This document shows positions 12,058 through 55,996 of a DNA stretch of 64,000 nt, piece after piece. The stretch is taken from assembly GCA_050084515.1 (NCBI GenBank), contig CM114271.1, positions 13,888,001 through 13,952,000 of the forward strand, read 5' to 3'. Position 1 is the stretch's first letter. Every line of letters begins with the position of its first letter. The DNA comes from Blasia pusilla. Its lineage: Eukaryota. The position numbers were made by a program, and so were the translations under genes. The notes under the pieces are model-generated. The model saw only the letters and a list, made by a program, of their open reading frames with translations. It did not search any database and was not told where the DNA came from.

Positions 12058-15000
12058 ATGAAGGGGAAGAGAGAAGTTCTACCCTTCCTGACAGTTCTGA
12101 AAGGAGACGAGGTTGTGGACACCATTAGTCTAGAGGGCCGGGATGTGGTAGTAATGGGAAGGCATCACTCATGCGATCTGGTAGTTGGGCACGCCAGCAG
12201 CAGTCGACGCCACCTCGAGATTCAAATCATTCAGGCAACAAGAGATCTGATTTTTACTGACCTTGGTTCAGGTGAGCTCTCTTCTTTCAATTACTCGCAG
12301 TATGCGACATGCATGACCTGCGTATTCGTCTGCGTGTCTGAAATTTGTGTGCACACAATCTGAACCGGAAGGATTCCCGAATTCCTTCGGTCGCTCGTCT
12401 TCCGATAATGCCCTTCATCGCATGTGTAGACGTGAAAGATAGACTTGAATTTGTAGACATTTGGTTGCCGAATTTATCGAAGCATCTCTCTCTGCACACG
12501 AGGCTTCCTCTCGGACAAGTGAACTGTAGAGCGTAATTGAGCATGCTAAACTGACATGGTCTCGTGCACGTTGACTACTTTTGCTCCGAATGGCTGGCGG
12601 CCTTACGTTCATTGTTCTGTGCATAGTCCATGGAACTTGGGTGCATGGTAGCCGATTGAATCCAATGACGCCGGTCGTGATCAAGAATGGCGCCACATTT
12701 CAGCTGGCTGCGTCGTCACGCGTTTATCGGATTGATTGGCAGCCAGCTCTAGTCGAATACTCGGACTCGGAGCTTTCAGCGTCGGATTCTGTTCAGTCTT
12801 CCAACGCGGAGAGTGCCCTAAGAGAGATGTCTTCGCACAGTGGCTCTAGATCTGGCCTGCGACACGGCTTCGAAAATCAGGTAAATGTCGTGCCCACATC
12901 GTTGGACGAGTCTCCACATAATTCTTGGAGATTCGTATCTTACCACAGGAATTAAAATCGGCATCCTTTCGACAGAGTATAGAAGTTTCCCTGCACTCGT
13001 CTAGTGTACTCTATCCCCTCAAAGTTCTTCAATCATTTCACGGTACTCCATCTTAACTAGGATATGGCAAGTCTGAGGGTGTTACGATAACGTGGAACAG
13101 GAAAATAAGGAGGTGTCGTCGCAGATCGAGTCCAAATCCGGTTCAATGCGACACATCTCCGACAACCAGGTACACTTCTCGCAGTGCAAAATGCAGCTCC
13201 AGTGTTCCGTAATGGCTTTGAGAAGTTCGAGTGAAGAATTGGATGTCCAATGGACGAGGATCGCTGATACTACGAGCTCACTCCCAAACGTCATTTCCAA
13301 TCCCTAGGCTTCCAGATCCATTAGTTTCAAACTGCAACACCGTAAAGGTTCTGAAATGGTGCGTAAATGAAATCGATATTGTGGAACAGGAAAAGAAGAG
13401 TAAAGTGAGCTCTCACCATCAGTCCAAAGTGGAGAGGGCTTTGATTCAACAAGATGAAAACGTCTCCCCGGCAGCGCTGAATTCTCCCGGGAAGCGTGGA
13501 CTGCAGAGAGTTGCGAGCTCACCGAAGCTCCCCATGCGCCGCCTGGCTTTCTCAGGGCTGCAGTCCTCTGGAACGAATGTACCCTCGCCAAGGTCGCCGT
13601 CTGTAAAGAAGGGTCTTACAGACAGATCGGCTTCCGCCAGGCCCGCACCTGCAGAGAAAACCGTTCCTTCCAGTAAGCAGAGGGCAGGGCCAGTGGGAGG
13701 GACAACGCCTTCCAGGCTGTGGCTCCGCAGATGCAACTCTGCGCCCTTGCCTCCACTCGCTACTGACGCCGGGGCTGCAGCCGACATGGAAAATAGCATC
13801 ACGCGTCCTTCGGCTCCTCCTTTGTCTGCGCTGATCGAAGAAGAAGAGGCGTCAAGGGATGGCAGTAGCGCGAGTCACGCTCAGTATGCATTGAACAACG
13901 CTTCTAAGCCCCGTGAAGAAGCAGAGAGCGACGAAGAGTACCGATCGGACAAGGAGAACGTCGATCCGGGGAAATCCATACACAAATGTATGCGAAATAG
14001 TAAGGGGAGTAACCGAGTCCTAGAGAGCTATGGGGGAGCAACGTCTAGAGACTCCTCACTGGTGGAGTCCATCGAGAGACAGCCTTTTCGCCCCTTGGTC
14101 ACCTCCTTCGACTGCACAGCCATGGACTACAGGCCGGTATTTCAGTCAAGCTATGCCTCTTCCGAAGAAGAATATGGCTCCAAAGCGCTGGGATTGCCCA
14201 GGCCTCGCTTATCCTCAGCTGTAAGTCATAACGCCCGCTTCCCGGAACCTTATTTAAAGATGTTGAGATCAGTTCATTTCAACTGTTTAGTAGGTGCCCA
14301 ATGTGAAGCCTTCTTGCCACGGTTATGGAAAGAAAATTGTCCCGATTCTTTATCTATTGACAGTCGTGGGCCCTAATCACAATGGTTAGTCTTTCCTTTG
14401 ATTGCGGAGTCTACAAGTTTCCTCGGAGTCATGGGCCACTGTGGATGCACCAAAACAAATTTTTCTTTGGAATTGGCTCTGGCATTAACATTCTTAATCC
14501 GTGGCGTATCAATCTCCACCAGACCCACAACTTGGACCAGATGCTAAGGACTTTGAAGCTGTCTGATTCCACCGAAGGAAGGAAGCAATGGCACGCTGTG
14601 ATCGACACCAACTGCCTCCTCGACAATGACTCCTTGAATGCCCTCAAGCAACTAGAGGGAATAAAAGAGACCTGTGTCATCATACCGAAAATTGGTCAGT
14701 ACGAATTATGCATCGGCTTGTATTTGGGATATGATTGGGTTTATGTTGTCACTCATGATCTTCCTTCGCTTCCCAGATTTCCCCGTTGTTAGTCTGGTAA
14801 ATTCACGAGATGTAATGGTGAACTGCAGTGGTGCGCGAGTTGGACTTTCTGAAACATAGGGACGGCTTGAGATCACCTGCACGTGCAGCCCTCAAATGGA
14901 TCGAGTCTTGTATGCTTAAACTTCCCAACTGGATTCATGTGCAAAATTCCTCCGAGTCGCTTCCAGTTGGAGTGACTCCACCTCCTTCGCCCTCCAGCAG

Positions 15001-15723
15001 AGGGCTCCCCCAGCACGGTCTTATGTCTCCGACGAATGACGATCACATTCTCGAATGTGCGCTCCTGTTCGACCTCACTGTCCGTCATGGAAAAGTGGCT
15101 CTGCTGACAAGAGACACGGCACTTAAGATCAAAGCCATGGCTGAGGTAATTCAACTGACCCATCTCCCTTCTTGTCTGCAATCCTGCTGCCTGTTCTGAA
15201 GGAGCTTTGTTGTGCGATTTTCCCGCAATCCATGGCGAGTGCAAAGTTCTTAAACGTTCTGTCGTGCGGAATGAGCTTTGAGAACCTCCAAGATGTAATC
15301 CACCTCTACCTTACCGCCGAGTTGGCTTGCAATGCGGGATTGTTCTTCGTCCAGTTATCGTCATTTCAGTCCTAGTACGGCCCTTTTACACGGCGTGGAG
15401 TAGTGTATCCATCGTGTCGGGCAACGTTTGTGCACTCACTATCTTCCGATGCTGACTGGTGACTGGAATTGCAGGGGCTAATATCTGAGAGTGCAACAGA
15501 GTTTTGCGAGAGTTTGCTTAGCCCCTACTCGAACCGTTTTCTTTGGGCCGGTAGCACTGCCCATGGCAAGACATGGGTGGAATCCCCACTCGGCAGCCCA
15601 GTGTTGAATGTCGAAGGCGAATCGAAGTCGAAGTGGCACGCACAAGTCAATCACAAGCTTGAAGATCTGCGCCACCATGTCACTGCGAAACCTCGAGGAC
15701 TCCATGTAGTCCTGACCCAATAG
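12058..15723 (+). CDS. PS1: FHA and PIN domain protein, PS1 (Parallel Spindle 1)-like, about 695 aa; predicted exons 12058-12271, 12627-12880, 13101-13169, 13390-14220, 14541-14694, 14829-15145, 15475-15723
   Basis: N-terminal FHA motifs (MGRH, HASSSRRH, DLGSVHGT joined across intron 1) and C-terminal PIN motifs (VIDTN, IPKIVVRELD, TNDDHILECA, LLTRDTALKIKAMAEG). All introns are GT-AG and phases join in frame. Exon 3 and the exon 4 acceptor are the least certain. Confidence 0.85.
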
Positions 15724-17599
15724 CCCCGAATTCTACGAATCCAGCTGTCGTAGAAATGAACAACTAAATGTTCAAGATTATGACACCAGATATGGCCATG
15801 GCAAGCGACTCTGAAAATCCAGTGACCGAAATACAGATGGTGGACTCCGCGTCAACCCATGAGCTACGACGCAATCTGTGGAAGCCCAGCTCGAACTGTG
15901 AAATAGAAGCATACTTCGGTGTACGAATGTTTCTACGTCACGTAGTTGGAACGAATTATCACGCAAATGATGTTTGCAGCGATTTTTCGGACCCTCTGTG
16001 GACCTGTGCTGAGGTTGGTTCGCTGGGTTTCGTCCAGACTAGTTTTGACTTTTTTGGGTGACATGCAATTGATGAAATTTGTATCTCAGTGTGGCTCTCA
16101 TAACGCACTGTACAAAGTGAGGTTGGAGGTTTCCACTCCGAAACCACTCTAAAAGTCGACAATGTGCAGTTGTTTTTATCACCCTAGGGGCTGCTGTGCT
16201 GTGGTCAGCTCGGATATTGCCCGCTTTTCGGAATGTAGATAATAAGGGAAAATTGAATCATTGCCTCGCCTCACTTTCGCCGTTCGATTCGCAAACTTGC
16301 ATGCTCTCGAAATGAACGCTTCGGAATATGAGGAAACGCAAAGAGGGAATACTACTAAATTTTTGCCCTTGCTATATACTAGATGATATGATGGGGAATG
16401 AGAAGACCCAAATATGAATTTTATTAAATGCGTGGGAATGAATAAACCCACTATTGCAAAATGAGAGTACGAAAATAGTGAGCATACTTATAACGTTATA
16501 TCTTAACATTCCCAGAATACAACCAACATTATATTTGAAGATTTCCCATATATATTATTATATTGATCGTGGGAGAAACCATTGGCAACCTTCTCCAATC
16601 CCCAATAAGCTAAAGATAAATTATTTAATTTTGTGTATGTTCTTCCCAAAACAAAGCATGTGTATGTAAAAGGAAAGGAAGATAAAAATATAAAGAAAGG
16701 AAGAAAAAAATCTTCCATGAGCACTTCGGTATTCTTTTAATTCTTTCCAAAGAAAAATATGAATTTCGCCTCAATAGCAAGCTTTAAATTTATTATCGTT
16801 ATTATAGGACAAAATGAAAAGAAAAAGCCCGAAAAGTGTCGTCATAAACTAACAAGGTATGACATTCTTCATTCAGTTAAGCGCCCGGTCCTATGCAACC
16901 GAAGGTGTGGAGCCCCGGCCCCAAATCTCTAAGATCTAACGGCTGGAAATGCAATTTGTTAATGGGTCCCCAACCATGATTCTCGCCGCGAGTAGGCAGG
17001 GCGTAAGATTTTGTGACTCTACCACCTCCCATTTCCAGTTACCAGAGAATCGGTGCACCGACGGAACGTACAAGAAGGAGGAGATAACAAACACCGAAGG
17101 GGGAAGAAAGCCCGACGGAATTTGATTTTCAACTGGGAAATCTTGCTGCGCCATTTCTTGGACGCGACCCGTGCTGCTTCCCATGGAGCGAGCACACGCA
17201 ATTGTGGCGTGCTCAGTCAATTCCCAACCACAAGCTTGTAATGCACACAGCAATCCGGTCTAGCTGCGCTGTGAAGCTCGTTAGAAGGGCCTTTCAAGGT
17301 TTTTCAGATCGCATTGTCTTTGTGTGTTCCGAAAGCGAGAATTGGCCGACATTGATAGTAAAATACTGAGTCGGACCTTTGTCAGCTGTGAGCTTGGGTA
17401 TTGACAGTTGCTATGAAAAATACAGCCCTTCTTCGCCACCTGCGTGAGCTGCACGACTTGTGTGAATCGGGATTCGGCATCCAATTCTGAAATTCGACTG
17501 GGAAGAGGAAGATGAATCTCGCTCGTACAACTTTTAAGCTCTTCAATTGTGTCAGCATGCATTGACTTATTTACTTTTTCTCTTGTTCATGCAGTAGAT

Positions 17600-18033
17600 A
17601 TGGCACGTGAGATTAAAAAGCCGTCTACACCACTTGGGGCATCTTCTCCCATTGGTATGCATTACATGTGCACAATAATGTACTTCATATTTGTATCACT
17701 GAATTTCATATTTCTCATGATATTGGCATGGACTCTTTTTTAGAGACTACTACAAAGAATGATCCACACTTGGAGCATTCCCCTTCTCCATGTATCCCAA
17801 AGAGGGGGACAAGCTTTGGTGATGGGATTCAAGGAAAGCAACGCAAGAGCTCTATGGATGGTACCGTAGCCCAACCCTTGACAGTATCAAGTAAAGAATT
17901 GATGGATACTATGAGGGAAGCTCGTCATGAACGATGGGAAGATAGACGCATATACCAACAAGAAGCAAATGCTTTTGAGAAACTTAGCGATGCAATAGCA
18001 ATGTTCCTTGCTAAGAAAGCAAGCACCATGTAA
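17600..18033 (+). pseudogene. Possible last exon(s) of the Harbinger accessory protein
   Basis: ORF converges on the transposase 3' end and ends in a helical KELMDTMREARHERWE...LSDAIAMFL segment. Position is typical of Harbinger ORF2, but no Myb/SANT domain was recognised. Confidence 0.35.
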
Positions 18034-18104
18034 GCATAGACAAGGAAGCACCATGACAAGTTTTATATATGATAATACTTTATTGAAAAGATGGGATATT
18101 ACAA

Positions 18105-18792
18105 TCATTGTGGCACTATGTGGTCTAAAAGTCCATCTCTGTTCGTCTTTCCATCATTTGTAACCTCATTATTGGGGACAAAGCTCATGAACCCTGGTGG
18201 AAGAGGTCTTGTTGTACTTGTAAGGTTTACGAGTCCATGTGGAGCATGGTCACCCCTATCGATCACGATGTTGTGGAGGATACAACAAGCAAATATCATG
18301 TATGATAATCTATTCAAGTTTGGATGATAAATAATTCGGTTGAGAATTCGCCATGAACCTTTGAGTGGTCCAAATGTCCTTTCTACACACATGCGCGTGG
18401 AAGAGTGAAGATGGTTCCTAGACTCTTTTCTCCCAGTTGCTCCTGGATATGGGACCATGAGCCAAGGTAAGATTGGATATTTTGCATCACCGATAATGTA
18501 CTCTTGAATTGTGCTGCCATTTCTAAGTGGAAATTTGGGAACCCTAACAACCCTTGTAGATGAACTTGCTAATTTGTAGAAAGTCGAGTTTCAGAGAAGT
18601 TGAGTGTCATGAACACAACCGGGGTATAATCCAAAGATATCTATAAATCTTAATTCAGAATCCACGATTGCTTGCATGACACAAGCATAACATTTATTCT
18701 TGTGGCTATACCATGACGTGGAATTTGAACCAGCTGGTAGTTCAAGGAGAAAATGCGTTCCATCAATAGCACCGCAATAATTCAGAAATCCA
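18105..18792 (-). pseudogene. Harbinger DDE transposase, 3' part
   Basis: CGAIDGTH, QAIVD, PGCVHD, IIGDAKYP, RMCVERTFG.LKG.WRIL and ACCILHN motifs. In-frame TGA near 18593. Confidence 0.9.
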
Positions 18793-18920
18793 TGTCGTGC
18801 GCATACACATCGCTACACAACATACATCGTTGTCACCGAACACACACACAAACACGCATGATCCCATGGTAACTCATGGCATCCAAACAACGAGACAAGA
18901 AGTACCAAAATATCTCCAAT
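18793..18920 (-). repeat. Repeat B2 (right terminus, 128 bp)
   Basis: Direct repeat of 19436-19557; outermost 45 bp identical. Also matches about 49386-49501. Confidence 0.92.
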
Positions 18921-19433
18921 AAAGTAAGATCCAATCTCTCTCTCCACCATCTCATACCATAGCTCTCAAAGGTGTGCACTATCTCTCATGTCAAACCAAA
19001 CCCACTCTCCTAATGAGAGGCTTGGGTTACACTCACAAGGCAAGGTACCATAGCTCCGCCGCCTCATGCCAAGAGGTTCAACAAAGAGATAATGAGCTCT
19101 CAAGCTCTCTCTCCTTGAGGTATACCCCTCCCCTCTCCCAAGTTCTCTCCATGCTAACCTATTCTCCCAAGTCACCTCCTTGGCTCTTGACCTGATGTAG
19201 GAGGTCAAGGGCCACTTACCAAAAATATAAAGTCGATCACATACTCAAAATGGTACTTACCTAAAATAGTAAGTTCCTCAATATGGCTCCAAATGAGCCG
19301 AAACGAAGGGGAAACCTGCTCTCTCAGGTTTCCGGGGGCCTCAGCAGGTCATCCGCGACCTACTGAGCATGTCCTCCACTACTCACAAAGGCGCTCTATT
19401 AGATCTCACCGATCTATCCTAAAAGACGTGACA
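18921..19433 (-). repeat. Repeat A2 (internal copy of the left terminus, 513 bp)
   Basis: Colinear with 29162-29674; about 13 substitutions by manual comparison. Confidence 0.95.
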
Positions 19434-19435
19434 GC

Positions 19436-19557
19436 TGTCGTGCGCATACACATCGCTACACAACATACATCGTTGTCACCACCCACAAATACGCATGATC
19501 CCATGCTAACTCATGACATCCAAACAACGAGACAAAAAGTACCAAAATATCTCCAAT
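19436..19557 (-). repeat. Repeat B1 (internal copy of the right terminus, 122 bp)
   Basis: Direct repeat of 18793-18920. Separated from A2 by only GC (19434-19435). Preceded on the sense strand by CTAGGGGGGCG. Confidence 0.92.
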
Positions 19558-19737: not shown

Positions 19738-21079
19738 CTATGTACATCTGGGACACATCCATCGTCCATGAGGAACCCTAGTGAGAGGTGGCGTCAAACA
19801 TGCCATATGCCATCCTCTCGAACACCCATCACAGACTAGCATCGTGGCCGCACCACGGGCAGAACCACACAACATACAACGCAAGCCTGCAGGAACTACT
19901 ACTAAGCTCGGATCTACTGTACCATCAATGTTAGGAAGCTGACATGGCGCACAATTACGCATATGGTCCTTCCATACCATACCATCGCGTCCCTCCAGCA
20001 AGAGAACACCCGATGGCAAAATGTCACGCACTCTCAAGATAGTGCGCCCTGCAGTCACATCCAACGTTGTCGGTGCCGTCTGCTGCAAGTAGACATAATC
20101 TCCCTGATGAAACCTCCGGATAGTTGGTCGATAACCACCACCCCGAATAGTCGCATACCTCAACGTATCCCGATGCTGTGCAATCGCCAAGTTCTCGAAC
20201 GCCATGGGCATCACTCTCCGAAATAACTCAGCCCTCTGAGAACATGCTCGCACCCATACATCTAGATCATCGAGGTTCAGCACCTCACCGGCATCTCGAC
20301 AAATGGCCGTAGGTAAATCTGGCTCTCGGCCATAAAGTAGCAAGTACGGTGAAAAAGACGCTAAGGATGCCTGCCTGTTGAATCTGTATCCCATCGCCAA
20401 CCATGGCAACTGGAGGTCCCAATCTCCTAGGTGACCTCTCTGCAAGCCATACTTGCGTAAACCCCTCTTCACCGTCTGCACAACTCTCTCCACTAATCCA
20501 TCCGCCTCAGGATGATCTCGCAAAGTCGTGCGGTGGTCGATCAGCGCCTGATCACACAAGGCCTGGAACTCACCGCAAAACTTGGTACCCTGGTCTGTCA
20601 ACACCTCAGCCGGTGCACCATAATGACTCAGCACTCTGTCAAGGAAGGCATAAGCTACTCCCTCACTCGCTTTGTCAAGCAATGCAACCAACTCGATCCA
20701 CTTTGAGAAGTGCTCGACCATCACCAACACATAACGACTATGACGCTCCGTTAAGGGCAAAGGTCCTGCAAAATCCAAACTCCATCTATACCCTAAGCCC
20801 ATGATCAGTAATGGATGCAAATGTGGAGTCGGAGCATTGAACGATGCTCGGACCCGATCACACACCATGCACCTGGCAACAAACTGCTGAAGATAAGTTT
20901 GCATGCCTCGCAACCAATACTGAAACTGGAGCAAGCTGTACGTCCGCTTCACCCCAAAGTGACCCAACTCTTCGTGGGCATGCTGCACTAGTCGTGCTCT
21001 CTGCGAAGGATGCGGCACTACGCGTACTCTGCCATCCTCCCAAACCCTCAAAACATGTGTCCCCTCCCAACGGAGCCGT
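19738..21079 (-). CDS. Integrase (HHCC zinc-binding, DDE core) with C-terminal PHD finger, copy 2; open frame
   Basis: HEELGHFG...CMVC, WSLDFAGP, VLTDQG, GLVER motifs, then CMLC...CDGCSRGWHMAC...WMCPRC (C4HC3). The ORF-track start at 21144 lies inside an insertion. Confidence 0.92.
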
Positions 21080-22349
21080 TGTCGTATAGTAAAATCAATC
21101 AGTGTGTAAACTCCTTTGTCATTAAGTGTTAGATAGAGTTTCATAAGTATTAAGTAAATTGGCTTAGAAAAAGGAGATTCTTATGTTTAAACCTCTTTAT
21201 GGTGCCTCTTTTATGCGGGCCCAACTTTAGGAAAAGGAGGTAATAAATAAAAGATGACTTTATAAAAGTAAAGTAGTTGCTTTAATGAAAAGCAAAAGTA
21301 GTCTTGGTTGGTGGCTAGGTTAGTTGGGGTAATTTAGAAAATATCATGTGGGTAAAAGAGGATATTTTGGAAGAGATAAGAGGAAATCTACTTGTGTCAA
21401 AATGTGATTGGCTAAGCCTTGGGAGGAAGCCATGTGGCACAAGATAAGATAAGCTCTATTTCGTACTCTTGTGGATCCCTTGTGAGTATATAAAGAGGAG
21501 GGACCTTCAAGGGTTCATCACCTTCTATTCCACATCTTGAGTCTCTCGTGTCTCTCTTGAATGTATGGCTTTGGGATTGCTTGCTCTTCCAATGAGAGTG
21601 GATCACCCCTCTTGGGAGAGTAACTTGACTATGGTCTATTCTTTGAGAGATTTCTAGAGTGTGGTGTGTGTGTGTGGGGATGAGAGGTTTGTCACCGTAG
21701 AGGAGTTTAGTCATACTAAAATAGCGAAAGTTTTGGCTTGTTACTTCCCCAATGAGAGTGGATTACCCCTCTTGGGAGAATAACTCCGCCAAAACCCATT
21801 CTTGAGAGAGAGAGAGAATGTGTCAAGCATGGATAGGGGTGGAGCACAGTGTGCCCGACTTTCCTTTCCTCAATCCTTACCATGTCAAGGTACTCTTTGT
21901 AGATAGGCCTTTGGTTCACTCGCTATTTAGTTTATCACTTTGGGGAGGCGTTCATGAACCAGGTCATGCAATCTCCAACTCCGGTGATTCTTCCTATCGT
22001 CACATATGGAAGGACATGGGATTGTACTTTGTATGTCCTTATATAGCGATCCATGGATGTCAATAGGCCTGGTCAAGTAGGGTTTAACACTAGTTGTACT
22101 ATCTTCCTCGTGTACAAACGTAAAATGGTTTATAGGGATTTTATAGTTAGGAATTTCGGGGTCCGATGTTACGAAGAAGTGATCGCCTTGGCACTTCCAT
22201 TTGTGATACCTGTCGTGAGAGAATGGAGAGTGTACATCATAATTTTGTATTGAAAAAGGAGAACTTATTAGAGAGTTCACCTTGCATCGACCGCATCTAC
22301 CGCAGCTAGAAGGCCCGCCCTTGCTCGAAGAAAGATTCTCGACACGACA
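21080..22349 (+). mobile_element. 1270-bp solo-LTR-like insertion in the pol of copy 2
   Basis: Ends TGTCGT...ACGACA; 4-bp TSD CCGT (21076-21079, 22350-22353). Removal restores QRARRLRWEG. Homologous to 37189-37855. Confidence 0.9.
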
Positions 22350-22539: not shown

Positions 22540-23400
22540 GCGTGGAATGCGTGAGATAGCCTCTACCTTCGTCAGCTGAACACCAAGGCCCCCTGGGTAT
22601 ATCATATGACCCAAGTACTCAATCTGGTCGTAGAAGAACTTGCACTTGCCTGGATGTAGCTTCAACCCATGTAATTACAATCGTCGAAACACCTCCTCTC
22701 GATGTTGCTCATGCTCCTCAACCGTGGCGCTAAAGACTACGATGTCATCAATATAACACATAGCAAAATCCAGACCAGCCAAGATCCTATCCATGACCCT
22801 CTGAAACTCAGACGGGGCGTTCTTTAACCCAAATGGTAAGAACCGCCACTGGTACAAACAATCCTTCCCGTGAGGATCGATGCCCCAAAATGCCGTCTTC
22901 TTCTTGTCCTCCAATCTGATAGGCAGCTGATGGTATCCGGCTCGCAAATCCAATGAACTGAAGACCTTTGCATGACCAATCGCATCAAAGATCTCCTCAG
23001 GGGTGGGCATGGCATACCTATCAGACTTTGTCTGCCGATTGATAGGTCGGTAATCCCCACACATCCGCCTATCGGTCCAGTTGCCATGCACATCCTTCTT
23101 GGCGGGCATGACAATGGCAGATGCATATTCCCCATGCGACATCTCCACTAGTCCTGCTTTGACCAAGTCCTGGCTCCTACTCTGAATCAGAGCCCTCTCC
23201 ATATCACTGTACCTGTAGGGTCGTCGGAAGATCGGCATATCATTCAACAACTCAATGTGGATCCCCGGTCCCTTCAACGTACCCAAATCCTCCGTGCTAA
23301 ACGCAAAGCAGGTCCTATAACTCCTGAGGAACTGATGTATTTGGCGCGCTCTCCTCCTGTCAACTTAGGGCCCATATCTGGCTCCCAAGTCTCCATCGTG
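22540..23400 (-). pseudogene. Ty3/Gypsy reverse transcriptase, copy 2
   Basis: RMCGDYRPIN, FSSLDLRAGYHQ, LPFGLKNAP, YIDDI motifs. Premature stop at 22675. Confidence 0.93.
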
Positions 23401-23704
23401 ACTACGGTAGGACTCTCCGGGGCGGGTATTGGTGGTTGCTATGGTGCAACCCTGTCTCGAACAACAACACTCGGCCGCTCTCTTGCGCCAAGCGCAAGCG
23501 TGATCTCCTCCGGTGCGTGCCGAAACCACGCTCGATCTTTGTGGCTATCATCTCCTTGCGCACTGCAAAACATCCCAAGAAGTCCAAGGGTGTCTCCCGA
23601 TCTCCCCTGGTGCGTAGATCTCCTCGGGTCTCGCCTTGACCCACCTTTGCCTCCACCGTCTCGGTAGGCATGGGGCTCACTAACTTATAACCATTTGTGA
23701 TCCA

Positions 23705-24670
23705 TCACGATCTCATACGATGCTGCTCAGCCACTCCCAAGATGAGGATCCATGTCAAGCAGTTCAAGTCCATCGCCTGATCGAAGACATGGCGTCGTGA
23801 TGCCTCTAACACTAATGGTACTGCCGTCACTCTTGTGGGAAATCCCATCGCTTGCTCTCTCTCGTCGGCGTTGGGCTCCACCAACCGCTGAACATAGTCA
23901 TCCCAAACCAAGCCAGGACCGGCCTCCTTGTATGCATAGGAAGTGGGAAAACTCACAAACGTGGGCAAGGCTGCTCGCTGCCTATCTACTGTGTTGACCA
24001 CAATCAACGGTGGTCAATCATCGTGCCTCACTGCCTGTGATCGACAACCTGGATCCAGAATGGAATCCACTAACAAATGGGAGGGGCGCTCCACTCTCGC
24101 ATACGCCCTCCATAACACCGCATGGGGCACCAAGTTGGTCCACCATAGACGCGGGCGATGGGCTCTAGAACCTACACTCGCCGCATCCAAGAACACTGCT
24201 GGGCCGATCCAGGCACGCACCTGATGAGCACTCGTCACCACCCGTGACCTGGAGTCTCCTAAGATCGGCACATTCTCCAGAATGTAGGCTGGACAATGAG
24301 ACTGGTGCTCATGCAACTACCGTAACACCCTCAACATCTCCCAAAACAACCTGGACCGAGTGTCAGCCAACCCGCTGCCTCGTCCAACACTCGATTGGCC
24401 CTGACATGGCCAACCGGCAATGACCAAATCAATGGTCCCTACCCGGTCTAAGTCCTGCGCCCCCAACAACAAAATATTCCTTGGTAGGGAACTCTGGTAC
24501 CCTTGTACTGCGGACGCAGACAATTGCGCCACATGTCGTAGTGAGATGCGCCTCACAACATCATCACTCTCCACATACAGTAACTGCTGTACTCGCACTC
24601 CTGCCTGCAAAACAACAGCTAACCCGGTGCTAATCCCTCCAAAGAGATCTAACACTCAAATACCCTCCTC
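23705..24670 (-). pseudogene. C5 cytosine methyltransferase domain (DNMT3-like) inside the polyprotein, copy 2
   Basis: Motif I LDLFGG, II YVESD, IV IAGWPCQG (catalytic PC), VI ILENV, VIII AHRPRLWWTN, IX EREQAMGFP, X-like DQAMD, in canonical order. Two internal single-codon stops in one frame. Confidence 0.92.
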
Positions 24671-25090: not shown

Positions 25091-25513
25091 CTAGTAATCC
25101 ATGGAAAACCCCATCGGGTATAACACTACTCCACCAACCAAGACGTCGTAGGACTCTATATCAGTCACTATCGCCTTGGCGCGCACCACGGACTCATCTG
25201 TAGGATGTCCCGGGCGAATCCTCACCACGACCTCATGCCGGGTGATATACTGTGTGGTACTCGCTCCACCCAAGGATGTCTGTATCCGGAATGGACAACG
25301 CTCCACATCGGCTCTCGTCAAGCCCAATCCTCTGAATGACACTTTCCCCAACATCAGGGGTTGCGCTCCTGAATCCAACAAGACGCACTGCGGACTAAAA
25401 GCTCTACCTCCAAGACTCACCAACTGGAAGACCTCTCCTCGGTTATCCAACAACACAACACCAGGAGAAGCCATGGCACGCTCTATCGCGGGTCTAGCGG
25501 GCATCTCCGCCAT
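25091..25513 (-). pseudogene. Retropepsin aspartic protease, copy 2
   Basis: VLLDSGAQ active-site motif and YDVLVG C-terminal motif. Confidence 0.85.
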
Positions 25514-25849
25514 CCTAGCAGCCGCAGCCTACCATAAATCTGACGTGGACGGCCTGAGCATCCGCTCCAAGGGCAGGTCCATCACCTCCTCTGCAATCAC
25601 CTCTGAACGTGATGCAGGAAATCCAACTCTGTGCTCACATAGTGAAGCGGCCAGCAAAAAAGCCTCGGCGGGCGTACCCCCCAACGTCATAACATCGGAA
25701 GCGGAAAATAAAGGAGTGCGGTACACAACGGAGGCCACCCCCAACAACGTGCTCGACACATGCCCCTCCTGAGCATCAACAATAGGAGTCGTTGCACTCG
25801 CTTCTCCCATCGCCCTCCGTGCCTGCACACCAACAACATCACCAACTCT

Positions 25850-27532
25850 CTAGGAACTTTGATGAGGACCCATCGATGGGGTCTCATCGCCGGACAACGT
25901 GAAAGACTGAGGAAGCCTAGTCTGTCTTCTGGCTTCCCCTCGTTGTGGATCCAACTCTGCGGCTGCTCCATGCGTCACAACTGCAGCAGCCTCCATGTGG
26001 GCAACCCCGCACATCCATCCAGGATCCTCCAGATCTCTGGCTGCTCCATATGATGTCGATGCCACGGATCTGGCATCGGGTAACCTCAATGCCATAGCGG
26101 CAATCTGCTCCTATAGCTGCTGTATCTGAGCAGCCATCCCAGCCTCACGTCCGGCGTCTCCCTCGGTGCATCTAGGTGGTGGTACTCTACCTCCTCCACG
26201 GGCAGCTCCACCACCCTGTCGGGCAACTCCAGCTCCTCGTCCCCCAATGGGATCACCTGGTGCACAATCTCTAGGCCCACCCGGACCGGCTACTCGCTCT
26301 GGTGCCCTCTCTGGCCCTCGGTCCGGACGTAACTCAAGATGTAAACTGAAACACCTGGCGCGTGTATGACCATACCTGTGACAATAGTCACACAGATAAC
26401 CTCCTGGTGCAGCACCATCTCCTCCTCCATGTTGAGGCACACGTCCATGACCCTGAGGAGTGCAATCGCGCTGATGATGGGCTCCACCACATGACCAACA
26501 AGTAATAGTAGGCGGCTGCTGTTGAGCCGCATATGAAGGCGCAGGTCTCTATGGCACGGCCTCTCGATATCCTCCCTGAGCTCGTGGTGCCACAGTCGAC
26601 CTATCTCGGAGTCCACGTTGCTACACAGGTGGTGCAGACAATCGTGACTGCTCTCGCCCAGAACCCATGGTGGCTACGCTCTCCTCCGCCATGTTGCGCT
26701 CAATGTTCTCAGCGGTCCTAAAAACATCTCTCAACCTAGGGGAGGTGTTCATAAGAAGCACCCCCTCCCGCACCCGTATGCGCAGGGTCCGGTCCAACAT
26801 CGGATACCATGACTGGATAGCCTGAGCCTCTGTCACCCCCTGAGTGACGTTGATCAACCGGCGCAAGCAAGTGTAAGCCTCACGCAAACTCTCACCCGGG
26901 CGCCTGTGGAAGTCGTGGATGGTCCGCAACTTCTCCGTCCATACCCCCTAGTAGCTCGCCCTCAACTCAGCAAAGAACTCAACCACAGGGTTGAACCTGG
27001 GACGAACCTGACTAGACGGTGCAACTGCTCCCGTGCGAGTGACCCCTCCTAAAACGTCACTAGTGGAAGAGGCAGTAGCCTCTCGTGACTCCTCCTCCTC
27101 ATCTGGGAACGGCTCCGTCCATGACACATAATGTGGGTCATAGTAGAGCCTCCACGCCTCGATCTCACATGCATATCTCTGAGAGAACTCATGGTAATCG
27201 TCCATGGGCGCCCCCTCTAAATTCTGGAACATATCGTTCCATGCTGTAAACGGGTTGAACTCTCTAGAGTTTCTGGCCCGCTGGAAGTCGCACCAACTCC
27301 TAAAATCTGCTATAAAATTGTGCAACTCAATTGTGCCTACTGCACCTGAAAACCTACGCGGTCCTCTACCCCGGTCGTCCATCTTGTACGCCCAACTGGT
27401 AGGACCACTCACAATGTGTGGCGATGTGCTCACAAACTCCTCTACACCCTCCCCCTTGTCTGACGATGACACAGAAGGAGGTCGAGATGGTCCCTCACGT
27501 GGAGACCCTCGGAACCTCGCGCCACTCCGCAT
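25850..27532 (-). pseudogene. Gag with CCHC zinc knuckle, copy 2
   Basis: Retrotransposon-gag-like FHRRPGESLREAY motif and CDYCHRYGHTRARC knuckle. Broken by stops. Confidence 0.85.
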
Positions 27533-29161
27533 AAAACCTCTAGAGCTACTCTCGGGTTCACCACCTCGCCTCTCAAAGTCCCGAACGGACTCCGTGATGA
27601 CCCTCGTGCCCCTCTCACCCGATCACTCTGAACCTCGTGAGTAATCCCTCAATCACTCATCCCAAACATGCGGCACTCGATCTACACTCTCTCTCCACGA
27701 GACGTGTAACGTGCGGCAACACGCGGCGTGGTGCGGCAAATCGACCATGCTATCATCTCATCGACAACCTACCCTCAACTTCGGACATCCCACACATGTC
27801 TATGTCCCCTAAACCACATACATAAATGATGCTCTCAACATCCACACACCCAATATCCCCAAAAAAACTACCCAAATCCCAGAATCCCTCACACGTGCAG
27901 GGTAAAGGACCAGAATGGGTAACCTGAACACATGTCGATGTCGCTCCTCAGCAACTGCAAATCTCGACCCCAACTCGATCGTGGAGACAACTCCTCCAAT
28001 CATCAAGTCATACTCCTCCCGTATTGACGCTGCTCAAAACTCCTCGATAGACAGTGCGGTCCCAACGGAACGGTGTGGCGTTGCAGGCGCCACGGAACGG
28101 CTACGAACGGCACGGCCCTCTTGCAAAACTGCCATTGCTAGGCGATTTTTAGGGTTAAATTGTTCAAACCCTAAACCAGCCGCCACGCCGGCGGCGGCAT
28201 TTGCTGTCATAGTCACCGTGGTCCGCCGTCGACGGTCAACCATCACCATCACCGCCGGTCAAGCGGTCACCGTCGGCCGTAACGGTCCACCGTCCATTGT
28301 CCACCCTTTGGGTGCCATTGCCGCCATTACGGAGTGGAGGGTCTTCCACGACGTTTGTTGATTCCTTGACTTGCGTCGCCACCACGTACTTTGTTTTGGC
28401 CGCCACCGTCATCGCAGTTTTGTCATCAACCAGTGATGGCAGATGACCTCTGGTTATGGTGTTTGAGTTTTGATTTCATGCTGCTATGTTGTGATTGGTA
28501 GCCGTTCGACGACGATCGAGTATCGTGTCGTGATGCCCGTAGCCGCCGTGCCGCTCGTGGCCGCACCGCACCGTCTCGATCGCGGAGCCGCACCGTCATT
28601 GTGGAGCAGAGTGTGGGTTTATTGTTGATTGAGGAGGGTATGCCGCCAACTGCCGCATCCCACCATAACTTTTTTTCTCGCAATTCCAAATTGCGCAGTG
28701 TTTGTTGCACAACATGCAGAGCTTCACGATCTACGACAGCATCAAAAAATATTTAGAATTGGACATTCTAGTAAAAACTGACGGGGACTGTCGTAAAGCC
28801 CAATGTCTCTTTCTCCTACACAAAATTTGGCAGCGCTTCCGCGCTGATTTCTCCCAACGAAAATGTAAAACCTGTAAAAATACAAATGAGCAAGCTACAT
28901 GGTGCTCCCGAGAGCACCGGCATGGGGCAACCCGCCCCCATACTCAATCCCTATAAAAAATTGGGCAGCATTTCCGCGCGCCACTCTTCCACAAAAAAAA
29001 TCGGCAAATGCAAAGAACAATCAAAGCAGCCCTTGCTCCGGTGAGCACTCCCATGAGTCGCTGAACGGGGAACACGGTCCCCAACCTGAAAAAACAGCGA
29101 GTGACTAGCGATCTCCCCCATGAAGCTCTCTCACTCTCTCATTCTCTCATTCTCTCTTTGT

Positions 29162-29674
29162 AACGTAAGATCCAATCTCTCTCTCCACCATCTCACACCA
29201 TAGCTCTCAAAGGTGTGCACTCTCTCTCATGTCAAACCAAACCCACTCTCCTAATGAGAGGCTTGGGTTACACTCACAAGGCAAGGTACCATAGATCCGC
29301 CGCCTCATGCCAAGAGGTTCAACAAAGAAATAATGAGCTCTCAAGCTCTCTCTCCTTGAGGTATACCCCTCCCCTCTCCCAAGCTCTCTCCATGCTAACC
29401 TATTCTCCCAAGTCACCTCCTTGGCTCTTGACCTGATGTAGGAGGTCAAGGGCCACTTACCAAAAATAAAAAGTCGATCACATACTCAAAATGGTACTTA
29501 CCTAAAATAGTAAGTTCCTTAATGTGGCTCCAAATGAGCCGAAACGAAGGGGAAACCTGCTCTCTCAGGTTTCTCGGGGCCTCAGCAGGTCATCCGCGAC
29601 CTACTGAGCATGTCCTCCACTACTCACGAAGGCGATCTATTAGATCTCACCGATCTATCCTAAAAGACGTGACA
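29162..29674 (-). repeat. Repeat A1 (left terminus, 513 bp)
   Basis: Matches 18921-19433 and, in opposite orientation, 38995-39508. Not adjoined by a B repeat. Confidence 0.95.
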
Positions 29675-29678
29675 TCCA

Positions 29679-36400: not shown

Positions 36401-37188
36401 GAAGCAAAATTAACTCACCATCTTTAAAAACATGGAATTACTTACCCGTGAAACTCCACTAAAATCTGTGGAGTTTGGGTGTGGTAATGGTACATCCTCT
36501 GCTATTGTACCATGAAGAGAAACATCTCTTTTTGGAGCCCCCTTAAATTCAGATCCCACATGATGTGTTAAAAAGCATTGGCAAAGTTAAAACTTCCTCA
36601 ATTGTGATAGGAAACATGCAAGCTTTAATAGGAGTACTTAAACAAATGCTTAGATTGATAAATATGCCCATTGAATGAAATATGGTCATTGCAAAGCTAA
36701 CTATGTACAAGTCACATGTCAGGTTCAGGGCTTACAGCAAAACCCTGTAAACCTTCCTGGCATGTGTAGTTCAAAGTCACAGCGTGTGACCTAGCCTTGG
36801 TAATTTGCTCGGCCTTAAATTTCCTAGATTCTAATATCCAATAGTCTACCGTTCGTTCCCACTCCACCGCCCTTGTTTCGGGGTGACAAGGGACGTCTCG
36901 ATGGCCCCCATTCTTTAGCTAGTAGGCCTTTAATGTAGACCTCTGGTTTTTAGGAGTGTGGCAATCTTTTTTCTTAAGAACTCAGAATCCAAAGCTGGTG
37001 CATCGACATAAATATAGGACTCATTTATATAGTTGGTGACCATGGCCATACTTATTGGATCTTGTCTACTTATCTCCATGCATGACAAGTCAAGATAACG
37101 CATGACACGTACATTCAGATCACTCAACCAAGGATCATAACCATGTACCTTGGTTTTTGGATACCCATTTGGCATTAACTGGAAACGG
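33464..37188 (-). mobile_element. CACTA (En/Spm) element end with a decayed spliced ORF, truncated at 37189
   Basis: CACTAGAGGAAA terminus at 33464, then about 800 bp dense in ATGACT/AGTCAT subterminal repeats. Minus-strand exon-like ORFs at 35052-35369, 35984-36280 and 36930-37175. Confidence 0.65.
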
Positions 37189-49000: not shown

Positions 49001-52000
49001 ATACATTGAGGTATGCGACTATTCGGGGTGGTGGTTATCGACCAACTATCCAGAGGTTTCATGAAGGAGATTATGTCTACTTGCAGCAGACGACACCGAC
49101 GACTTCTACTAATATTGATGGTACAGTAGATCCCAGCAGTAGTTCTTGCAGGCTTGCGTTGTATGTTGTGTGGTTTTGCCCGTGGTATCGCCACGATGCT
49201 AGTCTGTGATGGATGTTCGAGAGGTTGGCATATGGCATGTCTGACGCCACCTCTCACTAGGGTTCCTCAAGGATGATGGATGTGTCCCAGATGTACATAG
49301 AGGAGATACTAGGTAGGTTTTGATTATGACTTTTTCTGTGACATGGATGACAGGAAGGCGACTAACGATGGGGCCACTCTCTCATTTGGTACTTCTTGTC
49401 TCGTTGTTTGGATGCCATGAGTTAGCATGGGAGAGTGCGTGTTTGTGTGTGTGTTCGGTGACAGCGATGTATGTTGTGTAGTGATGTGTATGTGCACGAT
49501 ATACATGAAGGATGCGCAAGCAAGTGAATACCTAAGGAAGTTGAAGTGGGGTGAGACGGTGGCCAATCTAAGTTTGAGGCATGGTTTGCTAAGATTTAGC
49601 AAAGCAGGATCTATGTGGGCCAAGGCAAGCTACAGACCAAAGTGTTTTGGAATGTCATGACGGACCTTTGGCATGACACAAAAGGGAGAAATCCACTCTT
49701 TCTGTTTTGGCCAAGATGTTCTTCTAGCCCAAGATAAAGGAAGATGTTGCTCAATATGTGAAGACCTACGTGACTTGTCAAGCGAACAAAGTTTCTTATG
49801 CAAAGAAGCAAGGCTTACTTTGTCCTTTGCCTATCCGAGAAGGACCCTTACAAAGCATTAGCATGGATTCCATTGCGAGTCTTTCGGAATCTCAGGGATA
49901 CAACGCTATACTTGTGATAGTTGATTGGTTTAGCAAGTTAGGGAGGTTTGTGCCGACGAGAGATTCTGCGACGGCCTATGGGACTTCCCGACTGTTCCTA
50001 GATAGTTGGTGGCGAGCTCATGGATTGCCTAGGAGCATTGTGTCTTATCCAGATCCAAAGTTTACCAGTGCCTTTTGGAAACATCTATTCATAAGGTTCA
50101 AGACCAAACTCAACTTTAGTACTGCCTTCCATCCTCAAACGGATGGGAAAACGGAAAAATTAAACTTGGTCGTAATTAAACTAGTACTTAAGGAATGATG
50201 TGAGTGCGGACCAGAAAATTTGGGAAAAGTGGCTAAGTAGGGCTGAGTATTGTTACAACTCCACCAAGCATTCTGCAACTGAAGAATATTTTTTTCTTCT
50301 GGCGTATCCAAGAGTACCAGAAGGGTCTCTTCACTTGGCCATTTTGAGGGGCACTACATCGGCACACACTCATCAAGCAACGGCATAATGTTTGTTAGTG
50401 GAAATGCAGGAACAACAAGAGCGAGCAAGAATAAGTCTTGCCAAGGCTCAACTAAGGTACGTGAAGCATGCTAACAAGAGTCGGCGCCAAGTGAGTTTCC
50501 AAGTTGGGGAACAAGTGTGGTTGAGTGTAAAGAATCTCACTCTTATGAAGGAATTATCCGCAAAATTTTCAGCCAAGTATGGTGGATCGTATGTGATCAA
50601 GGCAAAGCCATTTGAGGATATGTATACATTGGAGTTGGAAAACGAGTTCAAGATTCACCCAACATTCCATGTGTCATTATTGAAGAAGTGTCTTCAAGAC
50701 AATGTGTGTCTGGAGCGAAGAATTGTGTTGAGACCACAACCGGTCAAAAAAAATGAGAAACCAGAGTTGGAGGTGGAGACCATTCTGCGTTCTAGACGTA
50801 GAGCCACCAAGTACAAGTACTTGGTCAAGTGGAAAGGCTACCATGTGAAAGAGGCGACTTGGATTGCAAAGGCAGATCTTGAACACGCGCAAGAGGCATT
50901 GCGAGACTTCAAAGGGATGTAAGATAGGCATATATGTTAGTACATGGTGAAGCAAAGGACATAAGTTGTGATCAAAAAGCTTAGGTTGATAACCTATTGT
51001 AACTAGAAAAGTTTAGTTGTTGCAATAAAGAATGCATGGATTTGGAGATTCGAAGCTAGTGATTGTGATTTTGAGAATGGTAGTGCATGGCAATGAGTAG
51101 TTCTTCATATGCTTAGGATATAGGTCAAGGAGGCAAAACAATGAGTCTTTGAGATGAGAGCTTGTATTCGGATAAGGCATCTACATCAAGATCAAGTGTT
51201 GAAGTACTAACATTTGGACCCACCCTAATGGGTTTGTGGTAATCTCATTCATGATGCATAAGAGAACTTAGTGATTCGCCTAAGTAGAATATGAATGATC
51301 CAAAAGTAGTACGAATTGGCTAAGTAAACAGGAAATTATTTACAAATAGTGAGTAAATGAAGTGTTAGGTTTTAGACTTAGTTAGGTTATTTAGATAGTT
51401 TAGATTAGTTATCCAGAATTGGTCTAGGTTGATTGAAGTGGAAAAGCCAATAAATCTAAGTGCTGCAAGCGACAGCCTAAGACTTAAGCCAAAAGAGGAA
51501 TTGCGGGTTAGCTACCAGAACGCGATTCAATGTTAAGGGGTCGACTTCCCAGAAGTTAACATTAGAAAGGTTTGCGTTGATGAGCACATCAATCTTCTAA
51601 GGAGGGGTGAGTGTTGCGGCCCTCATAACGAAACAAACACCAAATAGGCGCCAAGCGAAACATGAGAACTCTAGTGGACTCACGCTACAATGATTGCGCT
51701 TTGGAGAGGCTTTTGGAAAGGTGTCTTGGAAAAGTCCAAGAGACAAAACACGGAACAGAGTGGACTTCGTAAGCGACACTTGGATTCCAACCTGCGATTC
51801 ATTTTCATAACTCACAACTAAGAACTCATTGGATTTCCATTGGAAATTTGGAACCGCATGACATTCAAACGCCATTTGAGGTTCTTGAAGTGACCAGAAA
51901 GTCTATCCCAAGTCTACAAAGACTTGCCTGTGTTGTGAATCGCAAAACTAGGAAGGTTGAGCTTGATGAGAGGCCGAGTCGAGAATTCAGCAAGTTAGAA

Positions 52001-55100: not shown

Positions 55101-55996
55101 GGAGCCCTTTTCCAAGTGGATTGAGTTGGTAGCGTTGCGGGAATGTAATAACTTTGTGCTCCAATGCTGAACTTACGCACTGTTTCTTCCATAGAGTACA
55201 CAACTTCCCAATCTACGTCAACTTACGCACCGACATGGAGCAATCTGCCCCCATACTCAAATTCTAACACAAATTGGGCAGCACTTCCACACGTCACTCT
55301 CTCACACAAAAGGTGTTGAACCTTGATAACCTTGATGTATGGATATGAGCATTTTTTCAGAGAGCTGAGTTGTCCCTGAGAGTGATGCCCATGGCATTTG
55401 AGAACTTGGAGATTACGTAACATTCGGATATGTTGAGGTATGCAACTATTCGGTGAGGTGGTCAATCCTACTATCCGGAGGTTTCATTAAGGAGACTATC
55501 TCTACTTGCAGCAAATGGTAGCCACAATGTTTGATGGGACCAGATGGCGCACCATCTTGAGAGTGTGTGAGGTTTTTCCATCTGGTATTTTCTTATTTGA
55601 GGGACACAATGGTATGGTTTGGAAGGCTATGCGCCATATCAACGTCCCAACATTGACAATATAATTGATCTGAGCTTAGCAGTAGTTCCTACAGGCTTGC
55701 AATGTATGTTGTGTGGTTCCGCCCGTGGTGCAGCCACTATGCTAGTCTGTGATGGATTTTCAAGAGGATGGCATATGGCATGTCTAACGCCACCTCTCAC
55801 AAGGGTTCGACGATGGATGTGCCTCACATGTACATAGAGTAGGTAGTTCTAGATTCTGACTTGTGTATGTGACATGGATGACAAGAAGGCGACTAGTGAT
55901 GGGACCACATGAGTATCCAACCTTTTTGCTCTTAGCATCCTAAAGATGCTTGTCATGGTAGATAGGAATAGATAGCATTCTGGAGTTAGAGGGACC
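52132..55996 (+). mobile_element. DNMT-Gypsy copy 4, heavily degraded (MTase C-half, RT, RNase H, INT, PHD, part of 3' UTR)
   Basis: Begins at FWEMLRVL...ILENVP. RT YIDD at about 53180; RNase H IIDHQPLRWL; PHD CMLC...WHMAC at 55700-55837. Confidence 0.85.
53703..54231. mobile_element. hAT-like MITE (529 bp) inserted in the RNase H of copy 4
   Basis: TIRs CAAGGTTACACAAA / TTTGTGCAACCTTG. Flanks ATGCTTAG and GTGATTGG both resemble the single family site GTGCTTGG, giving a degenerate 8-bp TSD. Confidence 0.7.

What the first reader, a model, noticed from the sequence alone, without database searches (positions are those of the whole stretch)
19738..19890. PHD finger at the integrase C-terminus, pairing a chromatin reader with the MTase
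Seen: a complete C4HC3 finger ends the polyprotein in copy 2 and is recognisable in copies 3 and 4, at the position where chromoviruses carry a chromodomain (compare 50760-50922). Known: the LVCDGC.RGWH..CL.PPL..VP.G.W.C pattern resembles PHDs that read the unmodified H3 tail (BAZ2/KDM5-PHD1 type) and lacks the Trp two residues before His used in H3K4me3 cages. Animal DNMT3 uses a PHD-like ADD domain to read H3K4me0. Inference: it steers integration toward H3K4-unmethylated chromatin.
Basis: partly seen in the sequence, partly recalled or inferred. Interest (0 to 1): 0.72.

Follow-up and report, generated by a model that had tools for sequence, protein, structure and literature searches.

The report
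PHD finger on a retrotransposon integrase
A very abundant plant jumping gene ends its integrase in a genuine histone-tail-type zinc finger that probably helps it dock on chromatin, but its DNA methyltransferase is made separately, ahead of a leaky-looking stop codon, so the two are unlikely to act as one reader-writer unit.

Summary
The PHD finger is real: minus strand 19890-19738, all eight C4HC3 ligands, ending the integrase frame (Pfam 41.9 bits). It belongs to a Ty3/Gypsy family with a DNMT3-like methyltransferase, A-coding-B-A-B split repeats and 4-bp target duplications, the layout described for Klebsormidium KnitGypsy-Dnmt3. The family makes up about 22% of sampled bases and is transcribed in sense. 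The finger is ancestral to the lineage: 60 of 69 integrase-selected relatives carry it and none has a chromodomain. It keeps the H3 Ala1 pocket and Arg2 aspartate and lacks the K4me3 cage Trp. It has, however, lost the acidic K4/R8 contacts of KDM5-PHD1 and BAZ2 (net charge +5), and a complex prediction with H3 passed only weakly. The ADD-like pairing is poorly supported. A conserved in-frame UAG-CARYYA, the TMV-type readthrough context, lies between methyltransferase and RT here and in relatives. Gag-protease-methyltransferase would then be made in excess and RT-integrase-PHD only by readthrough. PHD and methyltransferase are also lost independently in relatives. Flanks show no bias toward repeats. 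Verdict: a new variant of a known kind; the readthrough site is the freshest part.

The parts
19738..19890 (-). PHD finger (C4HC3) and stop codon at the integrase C-terminus
19891..21081 (-). DDE integrase (HHCC zinc domain, core, beta-strand C-terminal domain)
   Evidence: Pfam; AlphaFold model mean pLDDT 78, Foldseek hits to PFV and Ty3 integrases
21075..22349 (.). foreign insertion inside this copy, absent from other copies
   Evidence: reads of other copies skip 21074-22349; gap in self-BLAST
22675..23364 (-). reverse transcriptase; RNase H is deleted downstream (near 22535) in this copy
23433..23441 (-). conserved TAG followed by CAA CCA (CARYYA, readthrough-type context) between methyltransferase and RT
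   Evidence: relatives
23756..24655 (-). DNMT3-like C5 methyltransferase domain (motifs I, IV GWPCQ, VI ENV), with private stops in this copy
   Evidence: Pfam DNA_methylase on the copy at 60159; best PDB hits of an intact relative are DNMT3A/B/C
25091..25528 (-). aspartic protease region (LLDSGA motif)
   Evidence: motif seen directly; Pfam Asp_protease_2 on the relative L093, E 2e-4, below cut-off
26111..27622 (-). gag-like region with zinc knuckles (broken frames)
   Evidence: assignment inferred from position and knuckles
29161..29674 (-). repeat A at the 5' end (starts TGTC)
   Evidence: 97.5% to 19433-18920
19436..19557 (-). internal repeat B
   Evidence: 91% to 18920-18793
18920..19433 (-). 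repeat A, 3' copy
18793..18920 (-). terminal repeat B (ends GACA)
18789..18792 (-). 4-bp target-site duplication (partner at 29675-29678)
49139..49297 (+). PHD of copy 3, with an internal stop
55631..55834 (+). PHD of copy 4, one ligand lost and a short gap
50760..50922 (+). chromodomain of an unrelated chromovirus-type element (comparison only)

Best explanation
The finger is an old accessory domain of the integrase in a green-plant Ty3/Gypsy lineage (Gypsy-DNMT3 type). It most likely tethers the integration complex to nucleosomes by gripping the first residues of histone H3 (Ala1, Arg2), as chromodomains do in chromoviruses. In this family the grip is probably weaker and less selective for the K4 state than in KDM5-PHD1 or BAZ2. 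The methyltransferase is a separate tool of the same element: it is translated with Gag and protease ahead of a leaky UAG, while RT-RNase H-integrase-PHD is made by readthrough at lower level and presumably cut free by the protease. Shown: the domain, its position, conservation, the repeat structure, the conserved stop and its context. Inferred: H3 binding, readthrough, proteolytic release and any effect on target choice.
For: Pfam PHD directly after the integrase C-terminal domain. 60 of 69 relatives found with the integrase core alone carry Pfam PHD and 0 of 69 a chromodomain; most of the other nine end early or have a divergent finger. All 97 lineage rows form one clade apart from the window's chromovirus (SH-aLRT 99, quick tree). 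Arg2-binding Asp in 26 of 27 and 50 of 57 relatives, Ala1-pocket Trp in 27 of 27 and 50 of 57, cage Trp in 0 of 27 and 1 of 57; the roles of these positions are from KDM5A/B papers. pN/pS among 29 integrase-selected copies is 0.38 in the PHD (90% bootstrap 0.23-0.56) against 0.50-0.68 in unselected integrase parts. Complex prediction with host H3 residues 1-30: 0.45, best control 0.04, weak support. TAG-CAACCA in 16 of 19 and 8 of 8 located junctions in the genome. In the intact-looking relative L093 it is the only stop between a 1369-aa Gag-protease-methyltransferase frame and a 1047-aa pol frame, and the hexamer varies within CARYYA among relatives (CAGTTA, CAATCA, CAACCA, CAACTA). CARYYA after UAG drives about 10% readthrough in TMV (PMC2754532).
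Against: No binding or targeting experiment exists. The complex score lies in the range where passes were more often wrong than right (at 0.60 or under: 5 of 78 solved complexes and all 4 passing mismatches of 180) and may reflect memory of solved PHD-H3 structures. The finger is basic (+5) and lacks acidic residues whose mutation weakens H3 binding 2- to 17-fold or abolishes it in BAZ2 and KDM5. Flanks of 27 copies were no more repetitive than random DNA. Only 15 of 26 covering copies keep an intact finger, as expected for dead copies. One related family has CAACCC, one base off the consensus, and another has no such stop at all.
Confidence: 0.5

Rival explanations
1. One reading: the finger is a strict H3K4me0 reader that steers insertion into K4-unmethylated chromatin and works with the element's methyltransferase as the ADD domain works with DNMT3, so that reader and writer act at the same site.
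For: No cage Trp; closest solved fingers include several K4me0 readers; KDM5A also reads K4 through backbone carbonyls, which sequence cannot rule out here. The two domains co-occur across chlorophyte-type and streptophyte-type elements even though the methyltransferase sits before RT in some and between RNase H and integrase in others; some relatives have one continuous frame (P0101).
Against: Loss of the acidic K4/R8 contacts. The domains are separated by RT, RNase H and integrase and by a conserved stop. PHD without detectable methyltransferase (P0145 and its sisters P0142, P0025) and methyltransferase without PHD (P0144) both occur. No flank bias. The Klebsormidium enzyme showed no activity in yeast, which its authors call inconclusive (PMC5890265).
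Confidence: 0.15
2. In this family the finger no longer binds histones well and serves integrase in another way: a basic surface for cDNA, target DNA or genomic RNA, or a structural part of the intasome or particle.
For: Net charge +5 in the window against a median of -4 in 57 chlorophyte-type relatives; acidic wall residue in only 4 of 27 closer relatives against 37 of 57. An invariant Cys and His lie just before the finger (alignment positions C380, H381), suggesting packing against the integrase C-terminal domain.
Against: The Ala1 pocket and Arg2 Asp, which have no obvious role in nucleic-acid binding, are nearly invariant; H3 scored above three controls (weak).
Confidence: 0.25
3. The pocket binds a free N-terminus that mimics H3, either a host chromatin factor or one of the element's own protease-cut products, and so regulates or recruits rather than reads histones.
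For: The best-kept features are those that hold a free N-terminal Ala-Arg. A review on atypical PHD targets exists (PMC10124903, search listing only).
Against: No candidate ligand was identified; nothing here tests it.
Confidence: 0.1

Closest known systems
KnitGypsy-Dnmt3 of Klebsormidium nitens / streptophyte Gypsy-DNMT3 (de Mendoza et al. 2018, PMC5890265; part 1 of the text, sections 9 and 10, passages and text supplements seen, figures not)
   Same: Gypsy domain set with a DNMT3-like domain in the polyprotein and DIRS-like split repeats. A K. nitens protein with DNMT-RT-RNase H-integrase (P0126, 55% identical in the integrase) falls in the same clade.
   Different: The paper's text and text supplements never mention a PHD (Fig. 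4c itself was not visible). Here the family is very abundant, appears to be in a land plant, and has a UAG-CARYYA between methyltransferase and RT; P0126 is continuous there and ends before the PHD position.
Chromoviruses (Ty3/Gypsy with an integrase C-terminal chromodomain; REXdb paper PMC6317226, passages; targeting as cited in PMC6673714, passages)
   Same: A histone-reader fold at the end of the integrase, after the C-terminal domain.
   Different: PHD instead of chromodomain; separate clade from the window's chromovirus; split repeats and a methyltransferase.
PHD-bearing transposons: CR1-like LINEs, Chlamydomonas REM1, Chlamys PLEs (as cited in PMC6673714 and PMC8557442, passages; the REM1 paper was not held)
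   Same: PHD as a recurrent accessory domain of retroelements, proposed to read histone tails.
   Different: Other element classes or other positions; that REM1 carries its PHD in a separate antisense ORF is recalled, not checked.
KDM5A/B PHD1 and BAZ2A/B PHD (PMC4225485, bioRxiv 10.1101/715474, PMC5415848; passages)
   Same: Same spacing as KDM5B PHD1 without gaps; L325, D328, P347, G349 and W351 equivalents kept; no cage Trp.
   Different: D308, E321 (acidic wall) and D331 equivalents are Ala, Ala and Ser; the finger is basic.
EpiLTRs and DAM-LTRs (bioRxiv 10.64898/2026.05.21.726589, passages)
   Same: LTR elements that combine a DNA methyltransferase with a chromatin-reader domain.
   Different: Those carry a chromodomain, an adenine methyltransferase and a DNMT4-related enzyme; the preprint names Gypsy-DNMT3 as a separate acquisition and mentions no PHD domain.
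UAG-CARYYA readthrough of TMV; in-frame stops in SIRE1, Tca2 and MuLV (PMC2754532, PMC2194720; passages)
   Same: In-frame UAG with the CARYYA hexamer separating an abundant upstream product from a polymerase-bearing extension.
   Different: Here the stop lies after protease and methyltransferase rather than right after gag; readthrough is inferred, not measured.

Membership tests
PHD finger | C4HC3 ligands with PHD spacing and Trp two before Cys7 | tested here: met
   (41.9 bits, cut-off 24)
   Gly in 26 of 26 copies; Trp in 1 of 84 relatives
KDM5-PHD1/BAZ2-type unmodified-H3 reader | Ala1 pocket (Leu, Pro, Gly, Trp) and Arg2-binding Asp | tested here: met
KDM5-PHD1/BAZ2-type unmodified-H3 reader | acidic wall and acidic residue before Cys1 contacting K4/R8 | tested here: not met
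   Ala at both positions; acidic wall in 4 of 27 close relatives
KDM5-PHD1/BAZ2-type unmodified-H3 reader | binding to H3K4me0 over K4me3 | tested here: inconclusive
   only an unmodified peptide could be modelled; 0.45 against 0.04, weak
DNMT3 ADD module | reader adjoining the catalytic domain in one chain (recalled) | tested here: not met
   separated by a conserved stop, RT, RNase H and integrase
Gypsy-DNMT3 (KnitGypsy-Dnmt3 type) | DNMT3-like domain within a Gypsy polyprotein region | tested here: met
Gypsy-DNMT3 (KnitGypsy-Dnmt3 type) | DIRS-like A-coding-B-A-B repeats | tested here: met
   B-A-B in 27 of 30 loci; 5' A located in 15 of 20 upstream stretches
Gypsy-DNMT3 (KnitGypsy-Dnmt3 type) | grouping with the Klebsormidium element | tested here: met
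   one clade with K. nitens P0126, SH-aLRT 99 in a quick tree; that P0126 is a named KnitGypsy-Dnmt3 copy is inferred from its domains
Gypsy-DNMT3 (KnitGypsy-Dnmt3 type) | methyltransferase activity | not testable with these tools
   motifs IV and VI kept in most copies
Chromovirus | chromodomain at the integrase C-terminus | tested here: not met
   0 of 69 lineage proteins with PF00385
Chromovirus | phylogenetic placement among named chromovirus clades | tested here: inconclusive
   no named references were available; the window's chromovirus falls outside but on a long branch
DIRS/Ngaro tyrosine-recombinase elements | tyrosine recombinase instead of DDE integrase | tested here: not met
   rve integrase and 4-bp duplications in 14 of 16 copies

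The most novel reading that the evidence does not exclude
The element is a self-contained epigenetic delivery system. A leaky UAG lets it package a DNMT3-like enzyme at Gag-like levels to pre-methylate its own cDNA or new flanks, while the scarce readthrough product carries a PHD-tipped integrase that docks on H3K4-unmethylated nucleosomes. A family covering about a fifth of a land-plant genome would then write part of the host methylome.
Probability: 0.15. Interest if true: 0.8.

Novelty: new variant of a known kind. Interest (0 to 1): 0.48.

Why it matters
Integrase-fused readers are one of the few known ways in which LTR elements choose chromatin, and the tested cases are chromodomains. A PHD in that position, kept across chlorophyte and streptophyte elements, offers a second reader type. 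It comes in natural acidic and basic variants, in a family with thousands of datable insertions, so reader specificity can be set against insertion maps. The conserved UAG-CARYYA predicts that the methyltransferase is made in large excess over RT and integrase. That gives a direct handle on the open question of what retrotransposon DNMTs do, and it can be tested with a short reporter.

Tried and rejected
Chance ORF or host gene: rejected. Chromovirus and DIRS membership: rejected. Circular-DNA evidence from reads joining the element's two ends: rejected, because the internal B-A junction of other copies gives the same join. Insertion-site motif: none seen in 14 duplications. Targeting to repeats: 3 of 27 flanks held family DNA against 9 of 40 random windows, and 10 of 27 against 16 of 40 held any repeat; a small sample shaped by later selection, so no verdict on chromatin. 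Lower CHG observed/expected in flanks (0.51 against 0.71) was not tested statistically and is not used. Within-genome pN/pS is dominated by decay after insertion, and the methyltransferase value (0.75, CI 0.64-0.91) is only weak evidence of constraint. The careful tree did not finish; the quick tree is cited. The run search listed no indexed RNA holder; three raw RNA runs of the same species label were laid instead. Literature searches for a PHD on this lineage and for CARYYA in it found no description, but the library lacks most subscription papers, figures and bioRxiv supplements. Earlier-finding look-ups by place and by sequence were empty.

Full report
Observation. On the minus strand, 19890-19738 encodes a complete C4HC3 finger followed by one residue and a stop. 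It closes the 480-aa frame 21180-19738, in which Pfam finds Integrase_H2C2, rve and PHD (41.9 bits, E 1e-10). Two more fingers lie at 49139-49297 and 55631-55834, both damaged. An AlphaFold model of the integrase frame (mean pLDDT 78, above 80 over the finger) matches foamy-virus and Ty3 integrases.

The element. The copy spans 29674-18793. Repeat A (514 bp) opens it and recurs near the 3' end, flanked by two copies of a repeat B of about 125 bp: A-coding-B-A-B. B-A-B is present in 27 of 30 loci picked by the finger, the window's own included. For 15 of 20 fetched upstream stretches I could place the 5' end; with the window copy, 14 of 16 have a perfect 4-bp duplication and ends TGTC...GACA, one has a mismatch and one is ambiguous. 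A repeats of 13 copies are 96.3-99.6% identical. The order is gag, protease, C5 methyltransferase, RT, RNase H, integrase, PHD. The methyltransferase of an intact relative hits DNMT3A/B/C best. This is the layout described for KnitGypsy-Dnmt3: Gypsy domains, a Dnmt3 in pol, DIRS-like repeats (PMC5890265 section 9). The window copy is dead: private stops, no RNase H, a 1.3-kb insertion.

Abundance and expression. The finger query gave 10,247 first-look candidates in the 390-Mb genome, 150 of them scored. Family DNA made up 22-24% of bases in 40 evenly spaced samples. Three stranded RNA runs from one study also cover the neighbouring spliced host gene with few differences. They show sense transcripts along the element, with depth 123-225 over the integrase end and finger against 1-9 for the host gene; most reads are 90-95% alike and so come from other copies. 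The host is not identified; fragments of the lineage in Marchantia and Sphagnum proteins and a 72% Coleochaete relative suggest an early-diverging land plant (inference).

Age of the finger. A search with the integrase core alone returned 87 proteins. 69 belong to the lineage (40% identity or more over the region); 60 of these carry Pfam PHD and none a chromodomain; none of the other 18 has a PHD. Of the nine without, two have a divergent finger, five end at or before it and two truly lack it. In a quick maximum-likelihood tree of 115 integrases the 97 lineage rows, with Pleodorina, Tetrabaena, Chlamydomonas, Klebsormidium and Coleochaete proteins, form one clade (SH-aLRT 99), and the window's chromovirus falls outside on a long branch. 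Rows covering under 150 residues were left out. Among 29 genome copies chosen by the integrase core, 26 cover the finger and 15 keep it intact; pN/pS is 0.38 there.

What the finger can read. It aligns without gaps to KDM5B PHD1. The residues that hold H3 Ala1 (L325, P347, G349, W351) and Arg2 (D328) in KDM5B are kept here and in relatives (Asp 76 of 84, Trp 77 of 84), and the methyl-lysine Trp is absent (1 of 84). The acidic residues that contact K4, T3 and R8 (D308, E321, D331; KDM5A D292, E305, D315; BAZ2 acidic wall) are Ala, Ala and Ser. Their mutation weakens binding about 6- to 10-fold in KDM5 and 2- to 17-fold or fully in BAZ2. The acidic wall survives in 37 of 57 mostly chlorophyte-type fingers but in only 4 of 27 closer ones (groups assigned by hand), and the window's finger has net charge +5. 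K4 is also read by backbone carbonyls, so a K4me0 preference is not excluded. A predicted complex with the host's H3 residues 1-30 scored 0.45 against a best control of 0.04; runs agreed in at least 97% of contacts and partner pLDDT was at least 55. The tool rates this weak: the mark was reached by 51 of 78 solved and 2 of 108 mismatched pairs, but at 0.60 or under by only 5 solved ones and all 4 passing mismatches of 180. Solved PHD-H3 complexes may be remembered.

Pairing with the methyltransferase. A TAG followed by CAACCA lies between methyltransferase and RT (23441-23433). It was found in 16 of 19 located junctions (the others: one offset by an indel, one with a changed hexamer, one sense codon) and in 8 of 8 located in ten further stretches, whereas seven other stops of the window copy are not shared by most copies. 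The methyltransferase end and pol start share a frame in 4 of 5 measurable copies. In metagenome relatives the same site reads TAG-CAGTTA (L093), -CAATCA (L094), -CAACCA (L096, L099) and -CAACTA (L105); a further family has -CAACCC; a more distant family and L140 have none. In L093 it is the only stop between frames of 1369 and 1047 aa. Variation confined to the R and Y positions fits the CARYYA readthrough signal of TMV, about 10% efficient. It also explains why many database proteins begin just before RT. So the writer is probably made in excess and the PHD-integrase only by readthrough (inference). The methyltransferase also moves (before RT, or between RNase H and integrase) and is lost independently of the finger: P0145 runs from protease to PHD without one, and P0144 has one without a finger. 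Co-occurrence is best read as shared ancestry of two useful tools, not an ADD-like unit.

Targeting. No chromatin data were at hand. Flanks of 27 copies were no richer in family DNA (3 of 27 against 9 of 40) or in any repeat (10 of 27 against 16 of 40) than random windows. This neither supports nor refutes steering.

Known and new. PHDs in retrotransposons are called widespread and are proposed to guide integration (PMC6673714, PMC8557442). Gypsy-DNMT3 is described, and LTR elements combining methyltransferases with a chromodomain are in a 2026 preprint. I found no text placing a PHD on the Gypsy-DNMT3 integrase or a readthrough site in it; figures and bioRxiv supplements could not be seen. 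Three earlier AI reports on other genomes reached the same general reading; they are not evidence.

Verdict. Observation confirmed, interpretation partly supported. New variant of a known kind, interest 0.48. H3-tail tethering 0.5, non-histone role 0.25, strict K4me0 reader-writer pair 0.15, H3-mimic ligand 0.1.

Noticed in passing
window 23433-23441 (-), 46337-46345 (+); L093:5083-5091: Conserved UAG-CARYYA between methyltransferase and RT, a likely programmed readthrough placed after protease and methyltransferase; arguably a finding in its own right.
   Followed up: yes
window 18793-19557 and 29161-29674: Split direct repeats (A...B-A-B) on a DDE-integrase element with 4-bp duplications and a 2-nt spacer at the internal B-A junction; how reverse transcription is primed was not worked out.
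   Followed up: partly
P0021, P0033, P0158 and other chlorophyte-type relatives, after the PHD: Tails of 300-480 aa follow the finger; weak Pfam hints of a Tudor domain (E 0.007) and an adenine methyltransferase (E 0.035-0.04), all below cut-off.
   Followed up: partly
chlorophyte-type relatives, methyltransferase motif IV: Many have GWECQ instead of GWPCQ, and the domain sits between RNase H and integrase.
   Followed up: no
window 19962-19939 (-), just before the finger: An invariant Cys and His follow the integrase C-terminal domain in 42 of 42 aligned relatives' columns; they may be structural or add a metal site.
   Followed up: no
window 17617-18792: The copy is inserted into a PIF/Harbinger-type DDE transposase gene (Pfam DDE_Tnp_4) with a neighbouring ORF on the other strand.
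   Followed up: no
window 11634-16705 (+): An expressed, spliced host gene with a PIN domain (Pfam PIN_4; GT-AG joints) lies about 2 kb from the element.
   Followed up: no
window 21075-22349: The insertion inside the copy is itself repeated (37186-37853) and gives RNA on the opposite strand.
   Followed up: no
window 37963-38364 and 49728-50922: Fragments of chromovirus-type elements (RT; integrase, SH3_Tf2-1 and chromodomain) are interleaved with the family's copies.
   Followed up: partly
P0066 (cluster of P0004) and P0044: Members of this eukaryotic lineage are labelled as bacterial in public databases (uncultured Synechococcales; Minisyncoccia), probably through mis-binning.
   Followed up: no
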